From Mobula hypostoma (Eukaryota): a stretch of 64,000 nt of DNA. The position numbers were made by a program, and so were the translations under genes. The notes below the pieces were generated by a model, which made no database searches, was not told where the DNA came from, and worked only from the letters and a program-made list of their open reading frames with translations. The stretch lies in contig NC_086108.1 in the NCBI RefSeq assembly GCF_963921235.1, positions 80,044,001 to 80,108,000 of the forward strand, in the 5' to 3' direction. Below are positions 9,680-64,000 of this stretch, piece by piece. Within the stretch, counting starts at the first letter, position 1, and the number at the start of each line of letters is the position of its first letter.

Positions 9680-10370
9680 CACAGACTTGTACAGTGCAGA
9701 AATAGGCTCTTTCAGTCCTATTCGTCCATGCTGAGCAAGATGTCTGTCATGGCTGCATTAGGCCTGCGTTTATCTGCTCCTATCCTATCTGGCCAAACAT
9801 TTGGAAAGCATACTAATAGTGTTGCCTCCATCACCTCTGGCAGCTAATTCCAGATATTCACCACCCCCCAAAAACTCACTCTAAAGGTCTCTTCTAAATT
9901 TCTCCCCTCTTACTTTAAACGTGCCCTCTAGTTCTAGATTCCCCTGCCCTGGGAAAAAGATTCTTAACATATACTTGATCTACCCATTTCATAAACTTCC
10001 ATAAGGTCACCCATAAGCCTCCAGTAAGAAAAAAACCAGCCTTGCAAAATATGCAATATTATTTCATAACTACAGCCCTCCATTCCAGGCAACATACTGG
10101 TGAATTTTCTGGACTCTGTGTGGCTACCACATTCTTCCTGTAGTATGGCAACCAGAACTATGCACAGTGCTCATAAAATGCCGGAGGAACTCAGCAGGCC
10201 AGGCAACATCTGTGGAAAAGAGTACAGTCAACGTTTCGGACCGAGACTCTTCAGCATTTCCTCCAGCATTTTGTGCATGTTGCTTGGATTTCCAGCATCT
10301 GCAGATTTCCTCTTGTCTATGCGCAGTGCTCCAAGTTTGGTCTAACCAATGTTTTGTACAGCTACACATG
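9680..10370 (-). mobile_element. CR1 LINE 3' fragment, interrupted at 10173-10316
   Basis: CR1 tail and RT C-terminal homology to other copies in the window. Confidence 0.7.
10173..10316. mobile_element. Mini inverted Penelope-like terminus insertion with 15-bp TSD
   Basis: Minus-strand arm with partial hammerhead (GAAACGTTGACT) is joined to a plus-strand arm with tail. Flanked by CTATGCACAGTGCTC (10158-10172) and CTATGCGCAGTGCTC (10317-10331). Confidence 0.8.
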
Positions 10371-14470: not shown

Positions 14471-15199
14471 CACCAGACTACTAGGGGTGTTGTTTCCCCT
14501 CTTTGTTTAATTACCAATGCAGATTTACTGAGTAACTTCACATCCTCACCACCTTTCATTGCCCATTATCACAGAGCTTGAGGCCAAGTCCCTGCTGATT
14601 CCTCAACAGCTGATGCAGAGATTGTTGGACCCTGATATTTTTGCAACCAAAAGGTTTTTCAGAAGTCAAGAATAAGGCCTGAACTGTTTTGCTAATGACT
14701 GGTTTGTTAATTATTACAAGAGCAAAGAATAAGCAAGGTATGAGACAAAGAAAAGAAAAAAGTTTAAAAGTAGTGTGGTCTTCTCATACTGGACTATTGA
14801 TAACAGAAATTCTATTAATAACCATTAACCAATGAGATAGCCAGTTTCAAATAATATGACACCAGCCACTGGAACCAAGAAGTTTCCAGAGAAATACAGA
14901 GGGAACTGTAACCACTGGAAAACTCAGTGAACAATTACATATATATAGGTGATTATATAAAAATACAAACAAGCATAACAAAGTTAAACTAAAAGAAAAT
15001 AACAATTCTACACTCCAATCCAACAAGGTCCAGTGACACTGGCCTTCTGCATCCAGGTACCCAGGGTGAGTGTGATAAGGGACCAGGCCCAGCATGGTCG
15101 ATCGATTAATTTCTAATTTCATCCTATTGATAACAGTTACACAGAATTTCAATAAATGCAGCCGTTTGCACTGATTTAACTTCCGTGAACGGTAAACGT

Positions 15200-16030
15200 A
15201 AGAAAGTGTGCAGATGCTGGAAATCCAAAGCAACACACACAAAATGCTGGATGAACTCAGCTGGTCAGGCTGCATCCATGGAAGTGAACAGCTGGTCAAT
15301 GTTTCAGGCCGAGACCCCTTCTTCAGGACTGAGAAGGAAAGGGGAAGATGCCAGAATAAAAAGTTGGAGGGGGGGGGGGTTGAGGAGGCTAGCTGGAAGG
15401 TGATAGTTGCAGCCAGGTGGGTGGGAAAAGCCAAGGGCTGGAGAAGATAGGTCAGGAGTGGACCATAAGAGAACAGGAAGGATGAGACCCAGAGAGAATA
15501 GGAAGGTGAGAAGAGGTAAAAGGTCAGAGTGGGGAATAGAAGAGGGGGGGGGAATTTGTTTACCAAAACGAGAAATCAATATTCATGCCATCAGGTTGGA
15601 GGCTAAGCAGATGAAATATGAGGTGTTGCCCCTCCACCCTGAGGGTGGCTTCATCTTGGCACAAGAGGAGGCCATTAACTGAGATGTTGGAACGGGAATG
15701 GGAATTGGAATTAAAAGGATTGGTCACCGGGAAGTTCTGCTTGTTGCGGATGGTGTGGAGGTGCTCGACAAAGTGGTCCCCCAGTTTATGATGGGTCTCA
15801 CCAATGTAGAGGAGGCTGCATCAGTAGCACTGGACACAATAGACAACCCCAGAAGATTCGCAGGTGAAGTGTTGCCTCACTTGGAAGGTCTGTTTGGGGC
15901 CTGAATGGAGGTGAGGGGGGAGGTGTATGGGCAGGTGTAGCACTTGGGTGGCTTTCAGGGATAAATGCCAGGAGGGAGATTAATGAGGAGGGACAAATGG
16001 ACAAGGGAATCACAGAGCAAGTGATAACTG
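15200..16030 (-). mobile_element. Penelope-like element 3' part: GIY-YIG endonuclease remnant + pLTR with degenerate hammerhead (15294-15330)
   Basis: Minus frame TFQVRQHFTCESSGVVYCVQCY*CSLLYIGETHHKLG...LQPDGMNIDF. Hammerhead AGTC-CTGAAGA-AGGGGTCTCGGCCT-GAAACATT-GACC. Confidence 0.88.
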
Positions 16031-22425: not shown

Positions 22426-22652
22426 CTGTGTGACAAATTGATGAATTAGCATATTATACTTATCTTATTGAAGAGGAATGAGTTCAGCAGTTAACTTCCA
22501 TTGACCAGAAGTATCTGCCAATCAGTGTCTTTAACTCTACTGACTAGTTTATACTTTGTGTAATGATCTACCTGTCTGACCAATAGCCTTACAAACGTAA
22601 TTGTAGATGTGAGTGTGCAGAGTCAGCTAATCAGCCAATAGTCTTGTTGGGA

Positions 22653-22923
22653 AACACACAAAATGCTTTAGGAACTCAGCAAGTCAGGTGGTATCTTTGG
22701 AGGGCAGTAGATAGTCGACGTTTTGAGCTGAGCCACTTCAATAAGACTGGAAAGAAAGGGGGAAGAAGCCAGAACCTCTTTCCTTTCTAATCCTAATGAA
22801 GGGTCTTGGTCCAGGACATTGACAATTTGTTCCTCTCCAAAGATGCTGCAGACCTGCTGAGTTTCTTCAGCATTTTTTGTGAGTTACTCAAGATTTCCAG
22901 CATCTGTAGGATCTCTTGTGTTT
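22653..22923. mobile_element. Old inverted pair of Penelope-like termini (two degenerate hammerheads)
   Basis: Minus arm 22653-22774 and plus arm 22775-22923 (CCTAATGAAGGGTCTTGGTCCAGGACATTGAC + tail). Confidence 0.7.
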
Positions 22924-25745: not shown

Positions 25746-26240
25746 AATTCTCAGACATCTGCGGTGTTTGTAGAGCACATAATCCAGAACCCAGAATATA
25801 CACGATTCTACTGGCTGCAGTTTAACTCGCTCTTTTCATTTAAGCAAAGTGAGACCTCTGCTACAAACCTAAATTGATGAGGGAGAAATCAATTAAAGGT
25901 CCATTAAATCAGCAATAATTAATATGAGAACCTAATTGTATGTCACCAGCAATATAAAAAGCTATTTTCATTGAAAAGTAAATTGGCAGCATGCATCAAA
26001 AAGTTTCTAATTTAATAATCCTGCAGCATTACAACACCATTTTTTAAACATGTACCTCTAACCATCTTAAAACACTCTATGAGAGTGGAATCAGACACAA
26101 TCTGATTCCAAGCTGCAATAACACATATCAGGCAAGTGTTCAAATGCTGGAGCATCAAATTATGTTTTAAGGAATTACTTTAAGGACAGGCTGTTTAATC
26201 AACTGGAACTACAGATGTTCACTATGACAGCAACAATAAT

Positions 26241-26389
26241 GACTCTTCCTTCAGTTAGTCCTGACGAAGGGTCTCGGCCTGAAACGTCGACTGCGCCTCT
26301 TCCTATAGATGCTGCTTGGCCTGCTGCGTTCACCAGCAACTTTGATGTATGTTGCTTGAATTTCCAGCATCTGCAGAATTCCTGTTGTT
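26241..26389 (+). mobile_element. 149-bp Penelope-like terminus insertion with 9-bp TSD
   Basis: Near-identical to 62292-62439. TSD AACAATAAT at 26232-26240 and 26390-26398. Confidence 0.9.
26257..26292 (+). ncRNA. Minimal type-I hammerhead ribozyme (intact core)
   Basis: AGTC-CTGACGA-AGGgtctcggCCT-GAAAC-GTC-GACT; predicted cleavage after 26288. Confidence 0.8.
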
Positions 26390-27278
26390 AACAATAATTT
26401 CTAAGTTATTTCTTCTATCCATTTACTTCAACATAATTATGAATACTTACAAAATGTTGTTAAAAAGTCATAAGTGTTTGGAACCAAGGATACAGTCTAA
26501 AATAAAAATAAGACATTTTTTGTACCCTTCAAAGGCTGATATTTTAGCTATTTGCATGTGAGGAAATTGGCTGAACAACTGAGTTTCTTAGTTTCAAACA
26601 TTATGCCAGCCTTGCTAGTTCCCAGTCACAAAGTTTGAACTTAAAGAAAACAAGTTCTGAACACACCCTTACCTCTATCCCATGCATTAGGTAGTAAGGG
26701 TATGTTCTGAACGGTGAAAATGTTCAGCATTTGTTACCTGCCAAGAAAAATCACGACCAAATTAGTCAGATCAAAACCTGAGGAGCATTCTACATATGCC
26801 TGTCATTAAGCTGCATTGAGGTGCACCCAGCTACAATCACTTTTACACCAGTCAGTCTCTTAGAAGCAAGTCACAGAAGGTTTATTTACAATGCAATCTG
26901 CTGAAAAGGTTGTACTGCATGAGGAAACAAGGAACTTTTACCCCAGGTCTGATATTGCCTGAAGTGCACACCAAGGTCCTCCATCAACTGGATCGTAGAA
27001 CAACTGCGCAGGTGCGTGGACATCAGCGAGTTAGACCAGCAGGAAGAGTATAAAAGGCGATCATTTTTCCTTTGGCAGTTTGATCGAGGAATGACTGTGC
27101 AGGCACATGGACAACAGCAAGTTAGACCGGCAGGAAGAATTTAAAAAGAAGAAGACAGCTTTACAGAGTGGGCGACTGAGTAGAGGTAGACAGAATAGGA
27201 GGGCTTTGGCTTAACAGGGCTTCGGTGATAGCGGGTTGAGGCAAGGTGGGTTACCTGTGAAGAATAGAAACAGGAAGC

Positions 27279-28209
27279 ATGTCTGTGAGACCGGTGTTCT
27301 GTACTGGGTGTAAGATGTGGGAAGTCCAGGAGACTCCCAGCCTCCCAGAAGGCCACATCTGCGCCAGGTGCATTGAGCTGCAGCTCCTTAGGGATCACGT
27401 TAGGGAACTGGAGATGCAGCTCGATGACCTTCGTCTGGTCAGGGAAAGTGAGGAGGTGATAGAGAGGAGCTACAGGCAAGTAGTCACACCAGGGCCTCGG
27501 GAGACAGATAAGTGGGTAACGGTCAGGAGATGGGAGGGGCAAGAGTCAAATACTAGAGAATACCCCTGTGATTGTCCTCTTAACAATAAGTACGCCTGTT
27601 TGAGTACTGTTGGGGGGGGCTACCTGGGGGGAGCAACAGTGGCCGCGCCTCTGGCACAGAGTCTGGCCCTGTGGCTCAGAAGGGTAGGGAAAGGAAGAGG
27701 AATGCAGCAGTAATAGGGCACTGTCTTGTCAGGGGGTCAGACAGGCGATTCTGTGACGCAGGAAAGAAACACAGATGGTTGTTTGCCTCCCAGGTGCCAG
27801 GATCCGGGATGTTTCTGATCGCATCCACAATATCCTGAAGTGGGAAGGTGAACAGCCAGAGGCCATAGTACATGTTGGTACCAACGACATAGGTAGGGAA
27901 AGGGAGGAGTTCCTGAAAACAGGCTACAGGGAATTAGGAAGGAAGTTGAGAAGCAGGACCCCAAAAGTAGTGATCTTGGGATTACTGCCTGTGCCACACG
28001 GCAGTGAGTATAGGAATAGAGTGAGGTGGAGAATAAATGCGTGGCTGAGGGATTGGAGCAGGGGGCAGGGATTCAGATTTCTGGATCACTGGGACCTCTT
28101 TTGGGGCAGGCGTGACCTGTACAAAAAGGACAGGTTGAACTTGATTCCGAGGGGGACCCGTATCCTGGCAGAGAGGTTTGCTAAGCCTGTTGGGGAGAGT
28201 TTAAACTAG
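27279..28209 (+). pseudogene. CR1 ORF1 (Zn finger/leucine zipper + SGNH esterase), frameshifted
   Basis: ORFs 27279..27713 and 27775..28209. Confidence 0.85.
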
Positions 28210-29536
28210 AATTGCTGGGGGGTGGGAACCGAACTGAAGAGACAGAGAAAGTGCCTGTTGGCTCACAAATAGAGAAAGCTTGGAGACAGTGCGAGAGGGA
28301 GGTTAGGCAGGTGATAGAGAAGGAATGTGCTCAGACCGATGGTTTGAGATGCGCCTATTTTAATGCAAGAAGCATCATGAACAAAGCAGATGAGCTTAGA
28401 ACGTGGATCAATACTTCGAGCTCTGACGCTGTGGACATTACAGAGATTTGGATGGCTCAGGGGCAGGAATGGTTACTTAGAATGCCAGGCTTTAGATGTT
28501 TCAGAAAGGACAGGGAGGGAGGTATAAGAGGTGGGGGCATGGCACTGTTGATCAGAGATAGTGTTACGGCTGCAGAAAAGGAGAAGTCATGGAGGGATTG
28601 TCTACTGAATCTCTGTGGGTGTAAGTTTGAAACAGGAAGGGGTCAATAACTCTACTGTGTGTTTTTTATAGACCACCCAACAGTAACAGGAACATCGAGG
28701 AGCAGATAGGGAGACAGATTCTGGAAAGGTGTAATAATAACAGGGTTGTCGTGGTGGGAGATTTTAATTTCCCAAATATTGATTGGTGTCTCCCTGGAGC
28801 AAGGGGTTTAGATGGGGTGGAGTTGGTTAGGTGTGTTCAGGAAGGTCTCCTGACACAGTATGTGGCTAAGCCTACAAGAGGAGAGGCTGTACTTGATCTG
28901 GTATTGGGAAGTGAGCCTGGTCAGGTGTCAGGTCTCTCAGTGGGAGAGCATTTTGGAGATAGTGATTACAATTCTATTTCCTTTACCATCCCACTGGAGA
29001 GCGATAGGAACAGACAAGATAGGAAAGTGTTTAATTTTAGTAAGGGGAAACATAAAGCTATCAGGCAGGAACTTGGAAGCATAAATTGGGAACAGATTTT
29101 CTCAGAGAAACGTACGGAAGGAATGTGGTAAATTTTCAGGGGATATTTACGTGGACTTCTGCATAGGTATGTTCCAATGAGACAGGGAAAGGATGGTAGG
29201 GTACAGGAACTGTGGTGTACAAAGGATGTTGAAAATCTAATCAAGAAGAAAAGAAAAGCTTACGAAAGGTTCAAAAAACTAGATAATGATAGAGATCTAG
29301 AAGGTTATAACGCTCGCAGGAATGAGTTTAAGAATGAAATTAGGAGAGCCAGAAGGGGTCATGGGAAGGCCTTGGTGAACAGGATTAAGGAAAACCCCAA
29401 GGCATTTTACAAGTATCTGAAGAGCAAGAGGATAAGATGTGAGAGAATAGGACCAATCAAGTGTGACAGTGGAAAGTGTGTATGGAACGGGAGGAGACAG
29501 CAGAGAAACTTAATGAACACTTTGCTTCAGTCTTTC

Positions 29537-31592
29537 GACCATAAGACCATAAGACCATAAGACAAAGGAACAGAAGTCAGTTCTTCGGCCCATCGAGCCT
29601 GCTCCACCATTTTATCATGAGTTGATCCATTCTCCCATTTAGTCCCACTCCCCCGCCTTCTCACCATAACCTTTGATGCCCTGGCTACTCAGATACCTAT
29701 CAATCTCTGCTTTAAATAAACCCAATGATTTGGCCTCCACACTGCCCGTGGCAACAAATTCCATAGATTCACCACCCTCTGACTAAAAAAATTTCTTCAC
29801 ATTTCTGTTCTGAATGGGCACCCTTCAATCCTTAAGTCATGCCCTCTCGTACTAGACTCCCCCATCATGGGAAACAACTTTGTCACATCCACTCTGTCCA
29901 CGCCTTTCAATATTCGAAATGTTTCTATGAGGTCTCCCCTCATTCTTCTAAACTCCAAGGAATACAGTCCAAGAGCGGACAAACGTTCCTCATATGTTAA
30001 CCCTCTCATTCCCGGAATCATTCTAGTGAATCTTCTCCGTACCCTCTCCAACGTCAGCACACCCTTTCTTAAATAAGGAGACCAAAACTGCCCACAGTAC
30101 TCTGTGAGGTCTCACCAGCACCTTATAGAGCCTTAAAATCACATCCCTGCTCCTAAATTCTATTCCTCTAGAAATGAATGCCAACATTGCATTCGCCTTC
30201 TTCACCACCGACTCAACCTGGAGGTTAACCTTAAGGGTATCCTGTACGAGGACACCCAAGTCCCGTTGCATCTCAGAACTTTGAATTCTTTCCCCATTTA
30301 AATAATAGTCTGCCCATTTATTTCTTCTGCCAAAGTGCATAACCATACACTTTCCAACATTGTATTTCATTTGCCACTTCTTTGCCCATTCTTCCAATCT
30401 ATCCAAGTCTCTCTGCAGACTCTCTGTTTCCTCAGCACTACCGGCCCCTCCACCTATCTTCATAGCATCAGCAAACTTAGTCACAAAGCCATCTATTCCA
30501 TAATCCAAATCATTGATGCATAATGTAAAAAAGCGGCCCCAACACGGACCCCTGTGGAACACCACTGGTAACCGGCAGCCAACCAGAATAGGATTCCTTT
30601 ATTCCCACGCTCTGTTTCCTGCCAATCAGCCAATGCTCTATCCACGTATGTAACTTTCCCGTAATTCCACGGGCTCTTATCTTGTTAAGTAGCCTCATGT
30701 GTGGCACCTTGTCAAAGGCCTTCTGAAAATCCAAATATACAACATCCACTGCATCTCCCTTGTCTAGCCTACTTGTAATTTCCCCAAAAAATTGTAATAG
30801 GTTTGTCAGGCAGGATTTTCCTTTAAGGAATCCATGCTGAGTTCTGCCTATCTTGTCATATGCCTCCAGGTACTCTGTAACCTCATCCTTGACAATCGAC
30901 TCCAACAACTTTCCAACCACTGATGTCAAGCTAACAGATCTATAATTTTCTTTTTGCTTCCTTGCCCCCTTCTTAAATAGCGGAGTGACATTTGCACTCT
31001 TCCAGTCCTCCGGAACCATGCCAGAATCTATCGACTTTTGAAAGATCATCGCTAATGCCTCCGCAATCTCCACAGCTACTTCCTTCAGAACACGAGGGTG
31101 CATTCCATCTGGTCCGGGAGATCTATCTACCTTTAGACTATTCAGCTTCCTGAGTACTTTCTCTGTCGTAATTGTGACTGCGCACACTTCTCTTCCCTGC
31201 CACCCTCGAGTGTCCGATATACTGCTGATGTCTTCCTCATTGAAGACTGATGCAAAATACTCATTCAGTTCCTCCGCCATCTCCTTATCTCCCATTACAA
31301 TTTCTCCAGCATCATTTTCTATCGGTCCTATATCTACTCTCACCTGTCTTTTACTCTTTATATACTTGAAAAAGCTTTTAGTATCCTCTTTGATATTATT
31401 TGCTAGCTTCCTTTCATGGTTAATCTTTTCCCTCTTAATGACCTTCTTAGTTTCCTTTTGTAAGCTTTTAAAAACTTCCCAATCCTCTTTCTTCCCACTA
31501 ATTTTTGCTTCCTTGTATGCCCTCTCATTTGCTTTATCTTTGGCTTTGACTTCTATGCCCTCTCCTTTGCTTTAACTTTGGCTTTGCCTTCT
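29537..31592 (-). mobile_element. Younger 5'-truncated CR1 nested antisense in the full-length CR1
   Basis: (CATAAGAC)n tail. RT ORFs 30510..31343 and 30023..30565 (YLDFQKAFDKVPH, SGVPQGSVLGP). Host ORF2 resumes at FTTEKD. Confidence 0.95.
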
Positions 31593-33739
31593 TTTACTAC
31601 AGAAAAGGATCTTGTTGATTGTAGGGATGACTTACAGTGGATTGAAAAACTTGGGCATATAGACATTAAGAAAGAGGATGTACTGGAGCTTTTGGAAAGC
31701 ATCAAGTTGGATAAGTCTCCGGGCCTGGATGAGATGTACTGCAGGCTACTGTGGGAAGCAAGGGAGGACATTGCTGAGCCTCTGGCAATGATTTTTGTAT
31801 CAGCAATTGGGACGGGAGAGGTTCCAGAGGATTGGAGGGTTGCAGATGTTGTTCCCTTATTCAAGAAAGGGGGTAGAGATAGCCCAGGAAATTATAGACC
31901 AGTGAGTCTTACTTCAATGGTTGGTAGGTTGATAGAAAAGATCCTGAGAGGCAGGGTTTGTGAACATTTTGAGAGGCATAATATGATTAGGAATAGTCAG
32001 CATGGCTTTGTCAAAGGCTTTGAATTTTTTGAGGATGTGACTAAGCACGTTGATGAAGGTAGAGCAGTCGATGTAGTGTATATGGATTTCAGCAAGGCAT
32101 TTGATAAGGTAACCAATGCAAGGCTTATTGAGAAAGTAAGGAGGCATGGGATCCAAGGGGACATTACTTTGTGGATCCAGGATCGGCTTGCTCACAGAAA
32201 GCAAAGAGTGGTTGTCGACAGGTCATGGAGGTCAGTCACCAGTGATGTGCCTCAGGGGTCTGTTCTGGGACCCCCTACTCCGTGATTTTTATAAATGACC
32301 TGGATGAGGAAGTGGAGGGATGGGTTAGTAAATTTGCTGATGACACAAAGGTTGGGGGTGTTGTGGATAGTGTGGAGGGCTGTCAGAGGTTACAGCAGGA
32401 CATTGATAGGATGCAAAACTGGGCTGAGAAGTGGCAGATGGAGTTCAACCCAGATAAGTGTGAGGTGGTTCATTTTGGTAGGTCAAATATGATGGCAGAA
32501 TATAGTACTAATGGTAAGACACTTGGCAGTGTGGAGGATCAGAGTCCATATGACACTCAAAGCTGCTGTGCAGGTTGACTCTGTGGTTAAGAAGGCATAC
32601 GGTGTATTGGCCTTCATCAACTGCGGGATTGAGTTTAAGAGCCGAGAGGTAATGTTACAGCTATATAGGACCCTGGTCAGACCCCACTTGGAGTACTGTG
32701 CTCAGTTCTGGTCACCTCACTACAGGAAGGATGTGGAAACTTTAGAAAGGGTGTAGAAGAGATTTACAAGGATGTTGCCTGAATTGGGGAGCATGCCTTA
32801 TGAGAATAGGTTGAGTGAACTCAGCCTTTTCTCCTTGGAGCAGCGGAGGATGAAAGGTGACCTGATAGAGGTGTATAAGATGATGAGAGACATTGATTGT
32901 GTTTATAGTCAAGATTTTTTCCCAGGGCTGAAATGGCTAGCACGAGAGGGCACAGTTTTAAGGTTCTTGGAAGTAGGTACAGAGGAGATGTCAGGGGTAA
33001 GATTTTTACGCAGAGGGTGGTGAATGCATGGAATGGGTTGCCGGCAATGGTGGTGGAGGCAAATACAATAGGGTCTTTTAAGAGACTGCTGGTTAGGTAC
33101 ATGGAGCTTAGTAAAATAGAGGGCTCTGGATAACCCTCGGTAATTTCTAAAATAAGTACATGTTCGGCACAGCATTGTGGGCTGAAGGGCCTGATTTGTG
33201 CTGTAGGCTTTCTATGTTCTATGTTTCTAACTGGGAAAGCTTTCAGCAAGATATAGGAGTCATTGTACCATCAGAACAAAATAGTTCAGGCAATTGCACG
33301 ATATCTCAACAGCAACAAGGCTGTGCACGAAGCTTTCATTTTGACCAATTTAACATTGCCATTTAGAGCTACATCCAGAATATTATTTGATGGAGCAAGA
33401 TTTGTCTTTCCATAGTCCTATATTCTATTCATCAGAAGTTGAGTATCTTTCCATATTTTTCTTCCCTTTCTTAGTCTCTCAAATGCAACCATAAAAGTTA
33501 GTGAATCGATGATTATGCACTCCGGCAGCACTGCTCTGAACCACATGAGACAGAGCCAGAAGATAACTCACTCATCTGGCTTGGGCTGCTTGGGCTACAT
33601 TGTGTGATGTAGCTGTAATCAGCAATAGCAAAAAGAAAAATCTGTGTCTCACGGTTGTCAGATACCTCTCCAGCCATCTTGTAGACTTTGAGGGTGACGA
33701 TGAAACATATCCACTCCTGATTGAGAAGTGACTTGTATC

Positions 33740-41010: not shown

Positions 41011-41629
41011 ATCCACCTGCTTTTGAATCACAAATGTAAAGAACAATACAAAAATCATCTGCATTTATCCCTGCTTTTGACCGAATGATGGAACGAAGGT
41101 TGGAGATGGCGCAGCTGTAAATATTTGTGCTTAGGAGATTGCCCCGAGGAACTCCTACAGTGACAGCCTGGAGCCGGGATTTTTGAACCCTGACAATCAG
41201 AATGATTTTCCTTCTAGGTATAATTCCAACCATTAGATACTCTTGATATCTAAAGACTTCAGTTCTACCAGCACTCCTTGATGCTGTATTGACCTGATGG
41301 TCTGTTCTGCTGGTGAGGCAGAATGCAGCCAGGGATTGTGACATGAGAGGCTGACAAGATGTCCATAAGGATGAGTAAGCCAGGATTTTGCTGGACTCCT
41401 CTTGGGACAGACCTCTCAGTTTAGATACCAATCCCTAGATACTTCATTGCAAGGTCGATTGGACTAGGAGTGACTTTCCTGTGTCCAAGTTTGGTGCTTA
41501 GCTCAATAATTAATGGGCTGCCCAGCTTTATTCTTTCTCTGTTTCAATGTAGCAAAGTACAACTGAGTGGATTGCTAGGCCAATTCAGAAAACATGTGTG
41601 AATCAATCACACGTGAAAAATTGAGAAGA

Positions 41630-42080
41630 CCCTGCAGATGCTGCAAAGCTTAAATAAAAACAGAAAATGATGGAAACTCTCAAAGTGGGTTAGGCAGCAT
41701 TTGTGGAAAGAGAAATGATTAGAGTGTCAAGTCAGAGACCCTTGGTCAGACTTCTGCTGCATTTGGGCAAATCTGGAGTTGCCTTCTGATTATGCTCTTC
41801 TTCATGAGAGAAATATTGTTTCTGTTTCACTATCAAAGCCTTTCAACATTTCAATTCCATTTTTTGGCCATAAACACAAGAGATTCTGCAGATGCTGGAA
41901 ATCCAGAGCAACGCACTCAAGTTGCTAAAGGAACTCAGCAAGTCAGGCAGTATCTATGGAGAGGAATAAACTGTCAACAGGTGAGGTGTAAGTTAGGTGG
42001 GTGTGGGAGGGAGGGATGAAATAAGAAACTGGGTGAAGAAATTAAAGATTGAAGAAGAAGGAATCTGATAGGAAAGAACA
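41630..42080 (-). mobile_element. Two Penelope-like termini (41630-41752 old, degenerate hammerhead; 41871-42080 hammerhead deleted)
   Basis: CTGCAGATGCTGGAAATCC...GAACTCAGCAAGTCAGGCAG family signature. Confidence 0.65.
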
Positions 42081-43342: not shown

Positions 43343-43561
43343 TTCTATTATATTATAGGCTGCCAGTTATTTTGCATTTTCTGTTTTTATTTCACTGATT
43401 CAGCATCTGCAGTATTTGAATTTTAGCTGCGATTCGAGGCTTTCTATTAACTGATAGGCATCAGGAAAATAGGAAGATGGACAGCCACAGAAAACATAGA
43501 AAAATGTACATAAAATATATATGAATGAGGCATAAAGATTGGTATGTGTTTCACAAAAATA

Positions 43562-54004: not shown

Positions 54005-56360
54005 TCAGAATCAGATTCAGAAATCAAGCTTATTATCACTGACATATGTTGTGAAATTTGTTCTTTTGCAGCAGTACTGCTCAATACATAAAAATTATAA
54101 ATTCCAGAAAGAATATGTAATAAATAAATACATTGTGGATAAAAAATGAGCAAAATATTGAGGTTGGGTTCATGGGTTCATGGAGTGTTCAGAAATCTGA
54201 TGGCAGAGAGAAAGAAGTTGTTCCTAAAACAGTGAGTGTGGGTCTTCAGGCTCCGATACCTCCTTAATGATGGTAATAATGAGAAAAGGGCATGTCCTGG
54301 ATGGTGAGGATGTTTCTTGGTGGATGCTACTTTCTTGAGGCATTGTCTATTAAAGATGTCTTCCATGATGGGGGTCTTGTGCCCATGATGAAGCTGGCTG
54401 AGTTTACGGTCCCTACAGCTTTTTCCAATCCTGTGCATTGGCATCTCCATGTTAGACGGTGATGCAACCAGTCAGGAATGCTCTGTATGGTACATCCGTA
54501 GAACTCTGCCCAAGTCTTCGGTCTTACCAAATCTTCCCAAATTCCTTATGAAATACAGCCAATGACATGCCTTCGTAACTGTGTCAGTATGTTGGGCCCA
54601 GGATAGATCTTCAGAGATGTTGACAGCCAAAAGCTTGAAACTACAGGTGTCCCCCGCTTTTTGAACGTTCACTTTACAAAGCCTCACTGTTATGAAAGAC
54701 CTACATTAGTACCCTGTTTTCGCTTTCAGAAGGTGTTTTCACTGTTATGAAGAAAGGCAGCGTGTGATAAAAAATCAGCGCGCGATAAAAGGCAGCGCGT
54801 GCCCCGAGCAGCCGCTCTGCCCCGGATTCGGAACGGCATTGCTTTAACACGTTGCATTGAGCAGCCGTTAGCAAGATGAGTTCTAAGGTGTCGGAAAAGC
54901 CTGAAAGAGTAAGGGTGTTGCACTTAGCGTAAAACTAGACATAATTAAGCGTTTCAATCGTGGTGAACGAAGTAAGGACAAAGTGAGTTTGGCTTGTGGA
55001 AGTTGACGAAGATGATGTTGAAGAGGTTTTGGCATCCCATGACCAAGAACTGATAGATGAAGAGCTGACGCAATTGGAAGAGGAAAGGATAACAATTGAA
55101 ACCGAATGCAACCGAATGCAGAAAGTGAAGCAACTGCGTGAGATTTTCACTGCAATGATAAAATAGGACTTTAATTTTGAAAGGGTACGTAGGTTTAGGG
55201 GATATTTGCAGGATGGTTTGAGTGCTTACAAACAACTGTATGATAGAAAAATGCACGAGGCTCAGCAGTCAAGCAAGCCTTCCATATCAGCCACAGCAGA
55301 TGACGAACCTCAACCTTCGACATCGAGGCGGGCAGTCATAGGAGAAGATGAGCTGCCTGCCCTGATCGATGATGAGATGACACCCCCGTGTCCCACCACC
55401 CCAACACCCAGGCCGCGGACAGATACTGTACCGATTCACGGAGAATGCAGCAGTAGCCGGGAGGCACACAGCACATCTTTAAGAAAAAAGCCGAAATAAA
55501 CATGCTAATTAATTAGGTGCTGCCTAGCATGTAATTGTCGGCCCAGATCAGAGGCGATGCAATCGGCAATCGCCTTTGATCTGTGCCGACATTTACGTGC
55601 CGGGCAGCACCTCATTAATTAGCATGTTTATTTCAGCTTTTTTTCTTAACGATGTGCTGTGTGCCTCCTGGCTACCCCTGCGTGCTTTGCAGCAATGTAT
55701 CGGGTCGGTGGCCCATAGGGTGGGGTCCACTGCACCACCCAGCCTGCGACGACTCAGTCTAACACACCATCATCAGTGTGCTCGGCGCTGTTTTCCCAAT
55801 TCTGGTAAGTGATACTACACTGTACATACATTATTTCTACTTTATATAGGCTGTGTATTTCTATGTGTTATCTGGTAGATTTGGCAGCTTCATAGTTTAA
55901 AGGTTACTGGAGAGCGCGTTTATGCCAACAGCGCTTGCGTGAGATTTTCTGCCGAGAGCGCTTGCATGAGATTTTCACTACGGAGATCTGCGCAGGCAAT
56001 CATTGTAGAGAAGTATTTCTACTTTATATAGGCTGTGTATTTATCATATCATTCCTGCTTTTACTACATGTTACTGTTATTTTAGGATTTATGTGTTATT
56101 TGGCATGATTTGGTAGGATATTTTTGGGTCTGCGAACACTCACAAAATTTTCCCATATAAATAAATGGTAATTGCTTCTTCGCTTTACGACATTTCGGCT
56201 TACAAACTATTTCATAGGAACGCTCTACCTTCGGATGGCAGGGGAAACCTGTACTCACATTTTCCAATGCTGACCTGTTGATGAGAAATGCTGTGTATTA
56301 CCCTGATTTTTCCTTCCCGAGTCCACAATCAAATCCATGGTCTTACTGACAGTAAGGTTG
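54005..56360 (-). mobile_element. Rex1-Babar 3' fragment split by a Tigger element
   Basis: ISEDLSWAQH, HHPGHALFSLLPS, FRNNFF..AIRFLN; continues at 56254. Confidence 0.8.
54644..56251 (+). mobile_element. Tigger/pogo DNA transposon, internally deleted
   Basis: TA-CAGGTGTCCCC...GGGGAAACCTG-TA. CENP-B-like N-terminus (KGVALSVKLDIIKRFNRGER) fused to acidic C-terminus (EVDEDDVEEVLASHDQELIDEEL); DDE domain absent. Confidence 0.88.
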
Positions 56361-58665: not shown

Positions 58666-60455
58666 TTGAAAGTATCTTTTTTCATACACTAGTTCTGTAG
58701 ATTGCTGTGACATAAATCTTTAATGGATTTCCATTCTCCTGCTGCATTATATCTAAATAACAGGAATAGTTTGCTTTAAAATGTGCCTGATAATTTTATT
58801 TTGTTTCTCCCCAAATGTGCCTTTATTAGTGTATGAGAGTTGGCGTCAGTGGCCCTTTAAGTATGAGTTTACAAAGGAAGTTTATTTATGAAACAGAATG
58901 TTCGAGACAAATTGGTAGAGAGCAGCATGAACTGCAGGAGTCAGCAGTTAGGCTTGACTGCTCTACGTGGGTGGGCTGCTGGTTCAACCACCCTGATTTC
59001 CCTGTGCATACTGAATGACCCTGACTTATTAATCTCCATGTCTTTAAGACTTGTCTATCTGGTGCAGTTCCTGCCCTAGCCCCCTCCTCCCAACACACAG
59101 CTCCAGATCCAGAAGCCCACTCTCACCTCCCAAACCAGTTTCATTACTTTTTATTTGTATCACTTTTGGCTTCACTGACCACCAGGATAACACAGAAACA
59201 CACTGTGTTCATTCTTTCACATTTCTCTGTGTGGATTCCAACAGTGGAGTCACATCAAAACAAATACATCCAAACAGAGAAGGAAATTAAAGGGAAATTG
59301 TAGTTACTAAAATCAGTCACTGTCACAGTGTTTATTGAATGGAATAAATTGATGCACAGCCCCTTTCAGTTATAATATTTTGTTTATATTTCATGACAAT
59401 TAATTTGCTGGTTAAAGGCAGATTGATCAAAGGTAATTATGTGGAACTCCTTATCGCAGTGATGCCGAGGCCTGAATTTTCCTCAGCGGTGAAGTCTGCA
59501 TTGGGTTTTCTGGTTGCTGCTTTAACCATGGCATATTGTTTTGTTCTGGTATTATTCCAGCAGTTTAGAGTGAGCTCCCAAAACTGAGTCCCATTGAGAA
59601 CCCAATCAGTCAAATCAATTTTAGATACAGATCCTTGAATGTTGAACTTTGCACTTGTTCTCCCACTGATGGCTAGATTCTGAAATGTACTGTTAAACCA
59701 GATGACCCCAGTGCTACGTTAACGGTTTCCTTGGGGCTGCAGAGACACATCATGGCTCATTGCTCTATTACTCATGAGTACTAGACTGGTTGATAAAGAT
59801 GTCAGCATGTTGCCACAATAGCACAATCGGCTTCCTTTTTTCAGTCCCCCTCTCCCATACATACACTGAAAATTTCATTTATCAATTCAACTTATCTTAC
59901 TTCTTATTTTGGTATCCCTTGCAAATGGATAAGCTATCCCTAGGAGTTGTAAAACGTAGAACAGTACAGCACAGTACAGGCCCTTCAGCCCATGATGTTG
60001 TGTCAACCTTTTAACCTACTCCAGGATCAATCTCACCTTTCCCTCTTACATATCCTTTCTTTTCATCCATGTGCCTATCCACCAGCCTCCTAAATGTCCT
60101 TAATGTATCCATCTCTACCACCAACTGTGGCAGCACATTCCATGCACCTACCAACCTCTGTGTTAAAAAAAACCTACCTGGCACCACCCCCCCCCCCAAA
60201 ACTGCTGCCCAATCACCTTAAAATAATGCCCACTGGCATTAACTGTCAACTCTACCAATGCCTCATATTATACATATGAATCAGGTCACCTGTCATCATC
60301 TCTTACTCCAAAGAGAAAAGCCTAGCTCACTCAACCTCTCCTCATAAGACACATTCTCTAATCCAGGCAAAGTTCTGATAAATCTCCTCAGCACTCTCTC
60401 TGAAGTTTCTACACTCTTATAATGAGGCAACAGAACCAAACAACGTACTCTAAGT

Positions 60456-60709
60456 CCTTCCTAGCGTGTCGCACCAGACAGCCAGCCATTCTTGTCTGGT
60501 GCGTAGTGTCAGGATTGGCCTCCTTTCGGATTAACCGGGTCACGATATGAACGTTCCAGACTCAACCCTTTTTTTCTGAGGCCGAGTGGCTAGCTCGACG
60601 CTCAACCCGGCATGGATGGAAAGCGTGCTTGGGGGGTGGCCTGACTTGGATTCGAACTCAGGAGCCTTCGCTCCGAAGTCCGGCGCTGATCCCACTGCGC
60701 CACCAGCCG
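60456..60709 (-). mobile_element. Young tRNA-derived SINE with 11-bp TSD
   Basis: A box TGGCGCAGTGG, B box GTTCGAATCC, GACTTCGGA anticodon-loop-like segment. TSD GTACTCTAAGT at 60445-60455 and 60710-60720. Confidence 0.88.
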
Positions 60710-61138
60710 GTACTCTAAGTGTGGTCTAACCATGGCTTTATAGAGCTGCAACATTTGCTCATAGCTCTTGAACTCAGTCTCCTAATAAAGGCCAACACAC
60801 CGTACACGTTCTCTACAACCCTCATCAACTTGTGTACCAACTTTGAAGGATAAATGGTAGTGAACTCCAAGATCTGTCTGTTCCTCCACCCTGCCATTAA
60901 CCCTGTATCAATTTCAACCTTCCAAGTGCATAACTTTAGATTTTTCCAGTTTGAACTCCATCTGCCACTTCTCAGCCCAGCTCCGATTCCTATCAATTCC
61001 TTAACCTACAACAACTTTCTACACTATCCGTAACATCACCAACCATTGTGCCATCTGAAAACTTACAACCCACCTTCCCACTTCCTCAAAGTTGCTGGTG
61101 AACGCAGCAGGCCAAGCAGCATCTATAGGAAGAGGTAC

Positions 61139-61174
61139 AGTCGACGTTTCAGGCCGAGACCCTTCGTCAGGACT
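61139..61174 (-). ncRNA. Minimal type-I hammerhead ribozyme (intact core)
   Basis: Exact reverse complement of 62307-62342. Confidence 0.8.
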
Positions 61175-62306
61175 AACTGAAGGAAGAGTGAGTAAGGGAT
61201 TTGAAAGCTGGAGGGGGAGGGGGAGATGCAAAATGATAGGAGAAGACAGGAGGGGGAGGGATGGAGCCGAGAGCTGGACAGGTGATAGGCAGAAGGGGAT
61301 ACGAGAGGATCATGGGACAGGAGGTCCGGGAAGAAAGACGGGGGGGGGTGACCCAGAGGATGGGCAAGAGGTATATTCAGAGGGACAGAGGGAGAAAAAG
61401 GAGAGCGAGAGAAAGAATGTGTGCATTAAAAAGAGTAACAGATGGGGTACGAGGGGGAGGTGGGGCCTAGCGGAAGTTAGAGAAGTCAATGTTCATGCCA
61501 TCAGGTTGGAGGCTACCCAGACGGAATATAAGGTGTTGTTCCTCCAACCTGAGTGTGGCTTCATCTTTACAGTAGAGGAGGCCGTGGATAGACATGTCAG
61601 AATGGGAATGGGATGTGGAATTAAAATGTGTGGCCACTGGGAGATCCTGCTTTCTCTGGCGGACAGAGCGTAGATGTTCAGCAAAGCGGTCTCCCAGTCT
61701 GCGTCGGGTCTCACCAATATATAAAAGGCCACGTCCGGTGCTCCCGATGTGGCCTTTTATATATTGGTGAGACCCGACGCAGACTGGGAGACCGCTTTGC
61801 TGAACATCTACGCTCTGTCCGCCAGAGAAAGCAGGATCTCCCAGTGGCCACACATTTTAATTCCACATCCCATTCCCATTCTGACATGTCTATCCACGGC
61901 CTCCTCTACTGTAAAGATGAAGCCACACTCAGGTTGGAGGAACAACACCTTATATTCTGTCTGGGTAGCCTCCAACCTGATGGCATGAACATTGACTTCT
62001 CTAACTTCCGCTAGGCCCCACCTCCCCCTCGTACCCCATCTGTTACTCTTTTTAATGCACACATTCTTTCTCTCGCTCTCCTTTTTCTCCCTCTGTCCCT
62101 CTGAATATACCTCTTGCCCATCCTCTGGGTCACCCCCCCCCGTCTTTCTTCCCGGACCTCCTGTCCCATGATCCTCTCGTATCCCCTTCTGCCTATCACC
62201 TGTCCAGCTCTCGGCTCCATCCCTCCCCCTCCTGTCTTCTCCTATCATTTTGCATCTCCCCCTCCCCCTCCAGCTTTCAAATCCCTTACTCACTCTTCCT
62301 TCAGTT

Positions 62307-62342
62307 AGTCCTGACGAAGGGTCTCGGCCTGAAACGTCGACT
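62307..62342 (+). ncRNA. Minimal type-I hammerhead ribozyme (intact core)
   Basis: AGTC-CTGACGA-AGGgtctcggCCT-GAAAC-GTC-GACT; predicted cleavage after 62338. Confidence 0.8.
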
Positions 62343-62891
62343 GTACCTCTTCCTATAGATGCTGCTTGGCCTGCTGCGTTCACCAGCAACTTTGATGTAT
62401 GTTGCTTGAATTTCCAGCATCTGCAGAATTCCTGTTGTTTCCCACTTCCTCATTGTCATTTATAAAAATCATTAGGAGCAAGGGTACCTGAACAAATCCC
62501 TGCAGAACACCTTTGGTCACTGACCTCTAGGCAGAAAAGTCTCCATCAATTATTGCACAAGCCACTTTTAGAATCCACGCAGCCATGCCTCTTGACTTTC
62601 TGAATTAACCTGCTACGGGGGACCTTGTTGAACGCCTTACTAAAATCCATACCCACATCCACTGCTCTACCTTCATCAATATGTTTTATGACTTCTTCAA
62701 AGAATTCAATCAGGCTCATGAGGCATGACCTACCCCTCACAAAGCAATGTTAACTATCCCTAATTAGACTTGCTTCTCCAAATGTTCGTAAAACCTGTCT
62801 CTAAGAATCCTCTTCAGAAGTTTGCCCATCAATGATGTAAGACTCACTAGTCTATAATTTCCAGGATTATCCCTATTACCTTTCTTAAACT

Positions 62892-63580
62892 AGGAGGATG
62901 GAGGAGGAGAAGATGGCGGCACGACAGCAGCGCAAGTGGCCACTTCGGTGGTGATGTCTGTTATCTGTCAAGTAGGGGACCGTGCACAATCCTGATTTGA
63001 TGGACACAGACGTGAGAGTGCGGAGGAACATCTGGAAAACTTCTGAAATGTTCGCTTTGCTGCTGCTGCTAATGTGCGGTAACCGGAATCTCCGGAGCAG
63101 AAGGCCCCGAAATCCTCGGCTTTGCGTGTTTCAGCGGCCAGGGCGAGGTCAAAGGCGCTTGGCAGAGGATGGCACTCGGGAGGCTGTATCGGAGAGGCTG
63201 GTTGGAAGCTTGAAGTTTTCGTACGGATGGACTCAGTGTTGGCTGTGGTCGGCTGCTTCCAAGGTATCGGCAAGTTGACGGTGCCTGGAGGTTTATGGCA
63301 GGGAGTTTCTCCCTTTTGCCACCGCTATCGGGGACTCAGGAGTCGATTGACTCGATGACTTTTGAGATTTTATTTACCGTGCCCATGGTTTGTTCTTCAA
63401 CAAATTATGGTACTGCTTTGCACTGCTGTAACTATATGTTATAATTATATGGTTCTGTCAGTCTTTGGTTTGTCCCGTTTTCTGTGATATCACTCCAGAG
63501 AAACATTGTATCATTTCTTAATCCATGTATGCATTTCTAAATGACAATAAAAGAGGACTGAGTGTTCTCATAATCTAAAC
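62892..63580 (+). mobile_element. Non-autonomous non-coding retroelement (LINE-like 5'UTR + LINE 3' tail)
   Basis: Begins GAGGAGGAGAAGATGGCGGC (YY1-like), has a CpG-rich body and ends AATGACAATAAA...TAATCTAAAC. It interrupts CR1 at TAAAC. Confidence 0.65.
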
Positions 63581-64000
63581 CTAAACAAAGGAATAACATT
63601 TTCCATCCTCCAATCATCTGGTATTACTCCTGTGGCCAGTGAGGATGCAAAGATCATTCCCAAACACGCAACAATCTCTTCCCTTGCTTCTCATTGTAAC
63701 ATAGATATTTCGCACCTGGCCAAGGAACTTATATATTTTAATGTTTTTCATTTGTTCCAAAAAAAATCCTCTTTTTTAATGTCGAAATGTTTTAGCATAT
63801 CAGCCTGTCTTATGCTGGTCTCACAGTTGTCACAAGTCCCTCTTCACCGGTGAATAATGAAATAAAATATTCATTAATGATTTCCTCTACCTCCTCTGAT
63901 TTCAGATTTCCTTTTCTATCCCTGATTGGTCCAACCCTCACTCTAGTCATCCTCCCGTTCCTCACATAGGTGTGGTGTTTTCCTTAACCCTATGCGCCTT

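What the first reader, a model, noticed from the sequence alone, without database searches (positions are those of the whole stretch)
61075..62452. 1.3-kb near-perfect palindrome: GIY-YIG endonuclease ends back-to-back with a hammerhead on each strand
Seen: 647-bp arms (61086-61732 / 61749-62395), a 16-nt spacer and only one mismatch that I found (61523/61958). It has a perfect 14-bp TSD, a 3-nt microhomology (TCA) at the left junction, and two outward-facing intact hammerheads. Established: inverted pLTR structures and hammerheads typify Penelope-like elements. Inference: a very recent single insertion from a still-active family, made by fold-back or template switching. Read-through on either strand would give a long dsRNA (Dicer/ADAR substrate) that sequesters the ribozyme, and the DNA is cruciform-prone.
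Basis: partly seen in the sequence, partly recalled or inferred. Interest (0 to 1): 0.8.

Follow-up and report, generated by a model that had tools for sequence, protein, structure and literature searches.

The report
Back-to-back Penelope retrotransposon insertion
This 1.3-kb mirror-image DNA is an already described kind of footprint of a very common Penelope-type jumping gene, likely in a ray genome: two dead back-to-back copies of the gene's rear end, likely laid down in one recent insertion when both cut strands of the target DNA copied the same RNA.

Summary
The palindrome is in the assembly as described: 647-nt arms, one mismatch (a CpG change), a 14-bp target duplication, and a minimal hammerhead core in each arm. 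It is two 5'-truncated, head-to-head 3' ends of an abundant Neptune/Nematis-type Penelope-like element; the closest proteins are from rays. Inverted copy, one-sided tail, target duplication and opposed hammerheads are all in print (PMC3846280, PMC8557442, PMC4209133), and this scan noted the same layout many times on other DNA, this genome included. A contig from a related organism stops exactly at the end of the left duplication, as an empty site would. The centre join is not yet confirmed in reads. I favour priming from both cut strands over fold-back: the tail-less arm ends at the tail boundary, and a second insertion in this window has arms that each hold sequence the other lacks. The hammerheads are likely passengers; hairpin RNA is untested. 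Ordinary.

The parts
61075..61088 (+). Left copy of the 14-bp target-site duplication; last 3 bases shared with the left arm (microhomology)
   Evidence: organism B contig ends its match exactly at 61088 (record 19)
61086..61732 (-). Left arm: inverted, 5'-truncated, tail-less copy of the element's 3' end (equals right-arm 61749-62395)
61138..61175 (-). Minimal type I hammerhead motif, left arm, reading outward
   Evidence: mirror of 62306-62343
61467..61730 (-). GIY-YIG endonuclease C-terminal remnant in the left arm, to the stop codon; lacks the GIY half and the CxxC
   Evidence: 95% to P0001 residues 283-368
61733..61748 (+). 16-nt 'spacer': native coding sequence by which the right arm reaches further 5'; with 61732 and 61749 it can form a weak hairpin (5 of 7 pairs)
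61732..62438 (+). Right arm: 5'-truncated element 3' end with tail (707 nt; base 61732 is shared with the left arm)
61733..62014 (+). GIY-YIG endonuclease C-terminal 93 codons plus stop, with CxxC..H..H; no start, no RT, no GIY half
   Evidence: 96% to P0001
62306..62343 (+). Minimal type I hammerhead motif, right arm: core 62311-62317 and 62331-62338, stems I and II, no loop III; expected cut after 62338
   Evidence: type described in PMC4209133
62396..62438 (+). 43-nt one-sided tail (43-48 nt given the microhomologies)
62439..62452 (+). Right copy of the 14-bp target-site duplication

Best explanation
The palindrome is two head-to-head, 5'-truncated 3' ends of a Penelope-like retrotransposon inside one 14-bp target duplication, likely made in a single recent insertion in which both cut target strands primed reverse transcription of the same source RNA and the two copies were then joined at the centre. 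Steps: (1) inferred: the element's GIY-YIG enzyme nicks both strands about 14 bp apart; (2) inferred: the bottom strand primes at the distal start site (62438, tail included) and the top strand at the proximal start site (about 62393-62395, helped by the 3-nt microhomology); (3) shown: both arms come from one template, since they share 26 of 27 family-variable sites; (4) inferred: both copies stop inside the endonuclease coding region, 17 nt apart, and their 3' ends anneal through the weak complementarity around 61732-61749; (5) inferred: one CpG mutated afterwards. The product is dead: no RT, half an endonuclease, and two minimal hammerheads that are likely passengers.
For: Identity: 96% to a Mobula hypostoma protein that holds RT motifs, a CX4CxxC linker and the GIY-YIG/CCHH domain. 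One event: perfect duplication; organism B contig matches 60954-61088 and then runs on unlike for 199 letters (record 19; the run-on letters are not shown). One template: 26 of 27 variable sites that I took, table 3, are shared, about 6.7 differences expected for a random family copy (sites not independent; 10 further rows of that table were not shown). Two primers: the tail-less arm ends at the tail boundary, about 1.6% chance within 5 nt if the end were uniform; the same long/short pattern in 3 of 3 inverted structures found in this window (tail-less ends at 62395, about 62397 and about 62403 equivalents; the third may be two events); in the insertion at 10158-10331 (15-bp duplication) each arm holds sequence that the other lacks, which copying one arm from the other cannot give. 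In print: the Anolis element cuts and extends both strands in vitro, is predicted to be a dimer, and starts at two sites that bound the tail (PMC11167929).
Against: The arms overlap by 647 nt, whereas L1 twin priming leaves 1-10 bp overlaps or gaps (PMC11702581 passages); the same RNA must be copied twice, or two RNAs from one source must stop 17 nt apart. The join has a terminal pair and 5 of 7 pairs, which only 91 of 15,888 random position/spacer pairs reach, as fold-back predicts (though annealing of two cDNA ends gives the same pairs). The insertion at 10158-10331 is older (84-88% to the young copy), so a later deletion could have removed part of its right arm. The two-start-site data come from a Poseidon-clade element, not this clade. 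Only three structures were examined, and no whole genome was held.
Confidence: 0.58

Rival explanations
1. Fold-back self-priming: one cDNA is primed at the right end, its 3' end snaps back on the weak hairpin at 61732-61749, it is extended on itself, and it is joined to the left target end by the 3-nt microhomology, perhaps after the endonuclease trims it at the tail boundary.
For: Explains at once the near-identical arms, the 17-nt offset and the micro-complementarity at the join. Self-priming was proposed from palindromes at inverted junctions (PMC3846280 passages). Three likely inversion joints of other copies seen in contigs also have the sense arm longer, by 344, 199 and 65 nt (table 5; the stretch laid could only show this polarity).
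Against: The hairpin is unstable (+0.5 kcal/mol) and 190 of 662 positions offer a fold-back at least as good. It does not by itself explain why the inverted arm ends at the tail boundary in 3 of 3 structures. It cannot make the insertion at 10158-10331 without a later deletion.
Confidence: 0.27
2. The insertion is real but the centre, or the whole mirror, is a library or assembly artefact (fold-back chimera, or a longer middle collapsed).
For: No positive evidence. The reading stays open because the centre join has not been confirmed in reads (see Tried and rejected), and inverted Penelope structures are known to trouble assemblies (PMC8557442 and PMC3846280 passages).
Against: A chimera would mirror the tail and the right flank too; instead the mirror stops at the tail boundary and joins a different flank through a perfect duplication. 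The arms differ by a CpG transition. Organism B's contig leaves exactly at the end of the left duplication. An independent older insertion has the same layout.
Confidence: 0.09
3. The present centre arose after insertion: a longer or perfect palindrome was broken at its axis and rejoined, or two separate insertions were homogenised by gene conversion.
For: Long palindromes are known to undergo central deletions (recalled, no call). The asymmetric 16-nt centre is compatible with it.
Against: One duplication frames the whole unit, which excludes two separate insertions at different sites. Nothing in the sequence requires a second event.
Confidence: 0.06

Closest known systems
Inverted-pLTR insertions of endonuclease-bearing Penelope-like elements (Pen2a_Av of Adineta vaga, PMC3846280; general scheme in PMC8557442)
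   Same: Inverted 5'-truncated copy at the 5' end, head-to-head palindromic junction, tail on one end only, short target duplication.
   Different: Both halves here are short remnants with no full ORF between them; tail 43-48 nt against 30-40 in print; duplication 14 bp against 8-10 in Adineta; host likely a ray.
Neptune/Nematis clades of EN+ PLEs (PMC8557442)
   Same: C-terminal GIY-YIG with CCHH; the 96%-identical relative P0001 has the CX2-5CxxC linker that Penelope/Poseidon lack.
   Different: The linker and RT are not in the insertion itself; no RT tree was built, so Neptune versus Nematis is open.
Minimal hammerheads of metazoan PLEs (PMC4209133)
   Same: Type I core, extra base before stem II, palindromic 15.2-16.2 with no loop III; pairs on opposite strands 100-700 bp apart were already reported in Schistosoma.
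   Different: Here the two motifs are about 1.2 kb apart; no cleavage test exists for this family.
PAc (Poseidon of Anolis) in vitro (PMC11167929)
   Same: Both strands cut and extended; two reverse-transcription starts that bound the tail.
   Different: Another clade; the paper does not show inverted products in the parts I read (parts 1-2 of 4).
L1 twin priming (PMC11702581)
   Same: Discrete 12-18 bp duplication, microhomology at the 5' junction, inverted segment.
   Different: L1 halves barely overlap (1-10 bp) and prime at variable places; here the overlap is 647 nt and the second primer sits at a recurring site.

Membership tests
EN+ Penelope-like element | C-terminal GIY-YIG endonuclease with CCHH motif | tested here: met
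   Right arm encodes CxxC..YIG..H..H to the stop; PF01541 E 0.006, below cut-off because truncated; 96% to P0001
EN+ Penelope-like element | Telomerase-related RT upstream in the same ORF | tested here: inconclusive
   Absent from the truncated insertion; P0001 carries the RT C-terminal part and aligns over 99% of its first 370 residues to full-length RT+GIY-YIG proteins at up to 52%
EN+ Penelope-like element | Hammerhead motif in the pseudo-LTR | tested here: met
   Core and stems I/II present; not found by Rfam
EN+ Penelope-like element | Inverted 5'-truncated copy, one-sided tail, target duplication | tested here: met
EN+ Penelope-like element | Hammerhead self-cleavage | not testable with these tools
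   Fold not favoured in silico; minimal motifs did not cleave as monomers in PMC4209133
Neptune/Nematis clades | CX2-5CxxC linker between RT and EN | tested here: met
   In the 96%-identical relative P0001 and in 10 of 26 relatives by my pattern, many of the rest being fragments or frameshifted; not in the insertion itself
Neptune clade proper | Placement in the RT phylogeny | not tested
   No labelled reference set was on hand
Non-LTR retrozyme | Non-coding, head-to-tail tandem hammerhead units | tested here: not met
   Arms are coding remnants in head-to-head order
MITE / fold-back DNA transposon | Symmetric terminal inverted repeats copied as one unit to many sites | tested here: not met
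   Ends are asymmetric (tail); family copies continue natively past 61732 and other copies have other joints
L1-type twin-primed inversion | Two halves with little or no overlap | tested here: not met
   647-nt overlap here; about 19 nt in the insertion at 10158-10331. It may still work like twin priming

The most novel reading that the evidence does not exclude
Inverted Penelope insertions are not fold-backs but the routine product of a two-armed integration: a dimeric enzyme cuts both strands, each end primes at its own fixed start site on the same source RNA, and the two cDNAs are joined head to head. Ray genomes, with very many young copies, would let this be counted and would give the in vivo counterpart of the two start sites seen in vitro; the resulting perfect hairpins could in turn feed small-RNA silencing of the family.
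Probability: 0.5. Interest if true: 0.4.

Novelty: new member of a known kind. Interest (0 to 1): 0.16.

Why it matters
As a single locus it matters little: a dead insertion of a described layout, noted many times by this scan. Its use is as one clean, young data point on an open question, how Penelope-like elements make inverted ends and one-sided tails, which PMC8557442 calls undefined. If priming from both strands is the rule, it links the in vitro two-start-site result to genomes, and it means that such families keep seeding long perfect palindromes, possible sources of small RNAs (shown for inverted Penelope copies in Drosophila, PMC3681739 passages) and of fragile sites.

Tried and rejected
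Centre join in reads: laying 61695-61775 on runs X1 and X3 (organism A, one sample), X5 (organism B) and X9 (RNA by guess) listed no contig across the join; the longest pieces shown were 44-45 letters of native sense sequence, whereas a bridging contig would be about 55-59 (32 pieces shown, 9,353 not shown). No X1 or X2 piece across the left junction was among those shown either. Contigs show presence, not absence: the sample may lack a polymorphic insertion, hairpin fragments may drop out (PMC4057610 abstract start, listing only), or a filter removed them; an artefact is not excluded by this test. Expression: no RNA holder on record was listed; nothing is concluded. Whole genome: none held, so no census. 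Rfam: 0 hits at gathering score, 8 weak matches at the locus, all hairpin-shaped microRNA or flavivirus models, rejected as chance. Hammerhead pattern in metagenome contigs: 0. Related loci in metagenomes: 29, all distant (40-63%); 10 of 29 scanned for inverted repeats, with short ones in 3, not followed up. Full-length master at high identity: none among 62 proteins of 740-2110 residues, best 52% (weak evidence). Host gene: Pfam on 31 of 41 window ORFs of 110 aa or more gave only RT, endonuclease, esterase and ALKBH8_N domains, which I read as LINE parts (recalled); short exons would be missed. tRNA scan: 0. Scan look-up by sequence: nothing. A symmetric TG-N16-CA target motif from note e1-9538048 is not seen at the 2 sites with clear duplications (read by eye). 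Rejected: retrozyme, MITE, microRNA precursor, functional nuclease. Literature searches that found no paper on this family or on twin priming in Penelope elements, judged from titles and abstract starts only: 4 papers; 3; 0.

Full report
Observation. Arms 61086-61732 and 61749-62395 differ at 1 of 647 positions, a C-to-T change at a CpG in the right arm; both states are common in the family (table 3). It is by far the longest of 6 inverted repeats of 30 nt or more, with arms within 3 kb, in the window. A 14-mer frames the unit exactly and occurs nowhere else in the window. Its last three bases also fit the left arm.

Anatomy corrected. The 16-nt spacer is native element sequence: the frame of the right arm reads through it, and family contigs match the right arm from 61732 and continue upstream into the GIY motif region (loose ends). 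So the right arm is 61732-62438 (707 nt) and the left arm is a shorter inverted copy. The right arm alone has a 43-nt extension, 62396-62438, which is the normal 3' end of the family: the 98.6%-identical copy at 26242-26388 and several older copies in the window end there.

Identity. The 93-codon remnant has 26 relatives at E 0.001 or better among 93 candidates; the best are 96% (Mobula hypostoma) and 77-90% (Hypanus sabinus), so the host is likely a ray (inference). The best relative holds RT motifs, a CX4CxxC linker and the GIY-YIG/CCHH domain; the linker marks Neptune and Nematis against Penelope/Poseidon (PMC8557442 passages). Full-length RT+GIY-YIG proteins were found only at up to 52%. 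The family is very abundant and young: 159,586 contig records of run X1 were laid on 60300-61775, 41,254 of them at least 99% alike (not a copy number). The insertion lacks RT, the GIY half of the nuclease and any start, so it is dead as a coding unit.

Hammerheads. Each arm has the full catalytic core, a 4-5 bp stem I, a 4-bp stem II with two G-U pairs, an extra base before stem II and no loop III: the minimal type described for metazoan Penelope-like elements, which did not cleave as a monomer and cleaved weakly as a dimer (PMC4209133, parts 1-2 of 4 read; review passages PMC6155905). Rfam does not detect it. The hammerhead pairs have a probability of about 0.002 in a short 3' RNA and 0 in a read-through RNA. 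A read-through RNA would be 99.5% paired, but no read-through is shown.

One young insertion. Organism A run X1 matches the left flank with 0 differences in 470 letters. Organism B run X5 differs at 13 of 590 flank letters, and its contig matches 60954-61088 and then runs on unlike the window for 199 letters (records 1, 2, 17-19): the stop falls exactly on the last base of the left duplication, as an empty site would give; the run-on letters were not shown. Against an artefact stand the duplication, the one-sided tail, the CpG difference and the independent second insertion.

How it formed. Both arms come from one template: 26 of 27 family-variable sites are shared, against about 6.7 differences expected. 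Two models fit that: fold-back of one cDNA, or priming from both target strands on the same source RNA. The join does not decide: a terminal pair and 5 of 7 pairs is rare for a given spacer (91 of 15,888), but the hairpin is unstable (+0.5 kcal/mol), 190 of 662 positions offer one as good, and two cDNA ends would anneal through the same pairs. Two things tilt to dual priming. First, the tail-less arm ends at the tail boundary, here and in the two other inverted structures found in this window (10158-10331, and 22652-22923, which has no clear duplication, has arms about 75% alike and may be two events). Second, in the insertion at 10158-10331, framed by a 15-bp duplication with one CpG change, the left arm covers equivalents of about 62312-62397 and the right arm about 62378-62438: each holds sequence that the other lacks. 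In vitro, the Anolis element extends both strands and starts at two sites that bound the tail (PMC11167929, parts 1-2 of 4 read). Against: L1 twin priming gives overlaps of only 1-10 bp (PMC11702581 passages), and the small insertion is old enough for a later deletion. I put dual priming at 0.58, fold-back at 0.27, artefact at 0.09, later rearrangement at 0.06. I wrote this idea down before seeing the scan's notes, which agree but are not independent evidence.

Comparison with what is known. An inverted 5'-truncated copy at the 5' end and a 30-40 bp tail at one end are given as typical of these elements (PMC8557442 passages). Head-to-head palindromic junctions, one-sided tails and 8-10 bp duplications were described in Adineta, with self-priming proposed (PMC3846280 passages). 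Opposed minimal hammerheads 100-700 bp apart were reported in Schistosoma. Small RNAs matching inverted Penelope regions were reported in transformed Drosophila (PMC3681739 passages). Penelope-derived retrozymes occur in a cartilaginous fish (bioRxiv 10.64898/2026.07.22.740005 passages), but this unit is not one. I read no supplements; they may hold shark or ray examples. Searches found no paper on this family or on twin priming in these elements (titles and abstract starts only). Three likely inversion joints of other copies appear among 15 of 259 joints shown (only 25-30 letters on the short side, so weak), and the scan's notes list several palindromes of this kind in the same genome.

Verdict. 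A real-looking, young, dead insertion of an abundant Neptune/Nematis-type Penelope-like family in a described layout: new member of a known kind, interest 0.16. Its value is as a data point on how such inverted ends form. The centre join still needs reads.

Noticed in passing
window 10158-10331: Older, small inverted Penelope insertion with a 15-bp duplication (1 CpG mismatch); tail-less arm starts at the hammerhead front edge and ends at the tail boundary, the other arm is little more than the tail.
   Followed up: yes
window 22652-22923: Old head-to-head pair of Penelope 3' ends, tail on the right arm only, arms about 75% alike, no duplication found.
   Followed up: partly
window 26232-26398: Young 147-nt 3' stub of the same family (98.6%) with tail and a 9-bp duplication, not inverted.
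   Followed up: partly
window 3546, 18131, 45678 and 10256 (minus strand): Four older stubs begin within a few bases of the hammerhead's front edge (equivalents of about 62307-62312), not at its cut site.
   Followed up: partly
window 15193-16017: Older, frameshifted Penelope copy on the minus strand with linker, endonuclease and 3' end, about 70% to P0001.
   Followed up: partly
joint 61671 to 61745: A likely inversion joint of another copy, with 9 extra letters, at about 6-8 times single-copy depth in organism A (119 in X1, 78 in X2) and not listed for organism B: possibly a rearranged copy that was copied again.
   Followed up: no
window about 60456-60710: About 255-nt insertion with an 11-bp duplication inside an older LINE-like repeat; looks like a tRNA-derived SINE on the minus strand (recalled resemblance; ARAGORN found 0 genes).
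   Followed up: partly
window 55442-55686: Unrelated imperfect palindrome of about 245 nt (arms 88-89% complementary, 10-nt centre), possibly a MITE.
   Followed up: no
window about 62890-63585: About 700-nt GC-richer insertion in a LINE-like repeat, ending in a short repeated motif; not identified.
   Followed up: no
window 27757-32285: LINE parts (esterase, endonuclease, RT), with two RT frames head to head at 30513-31571 (minus) and 31464-32282 (plus).
   Followed up: no
window 41627-41679 and 43375-43412: Tail-like segments in inverted order 1.7 kb apart, around two further Penelope 3' ends.
   Followed up: no
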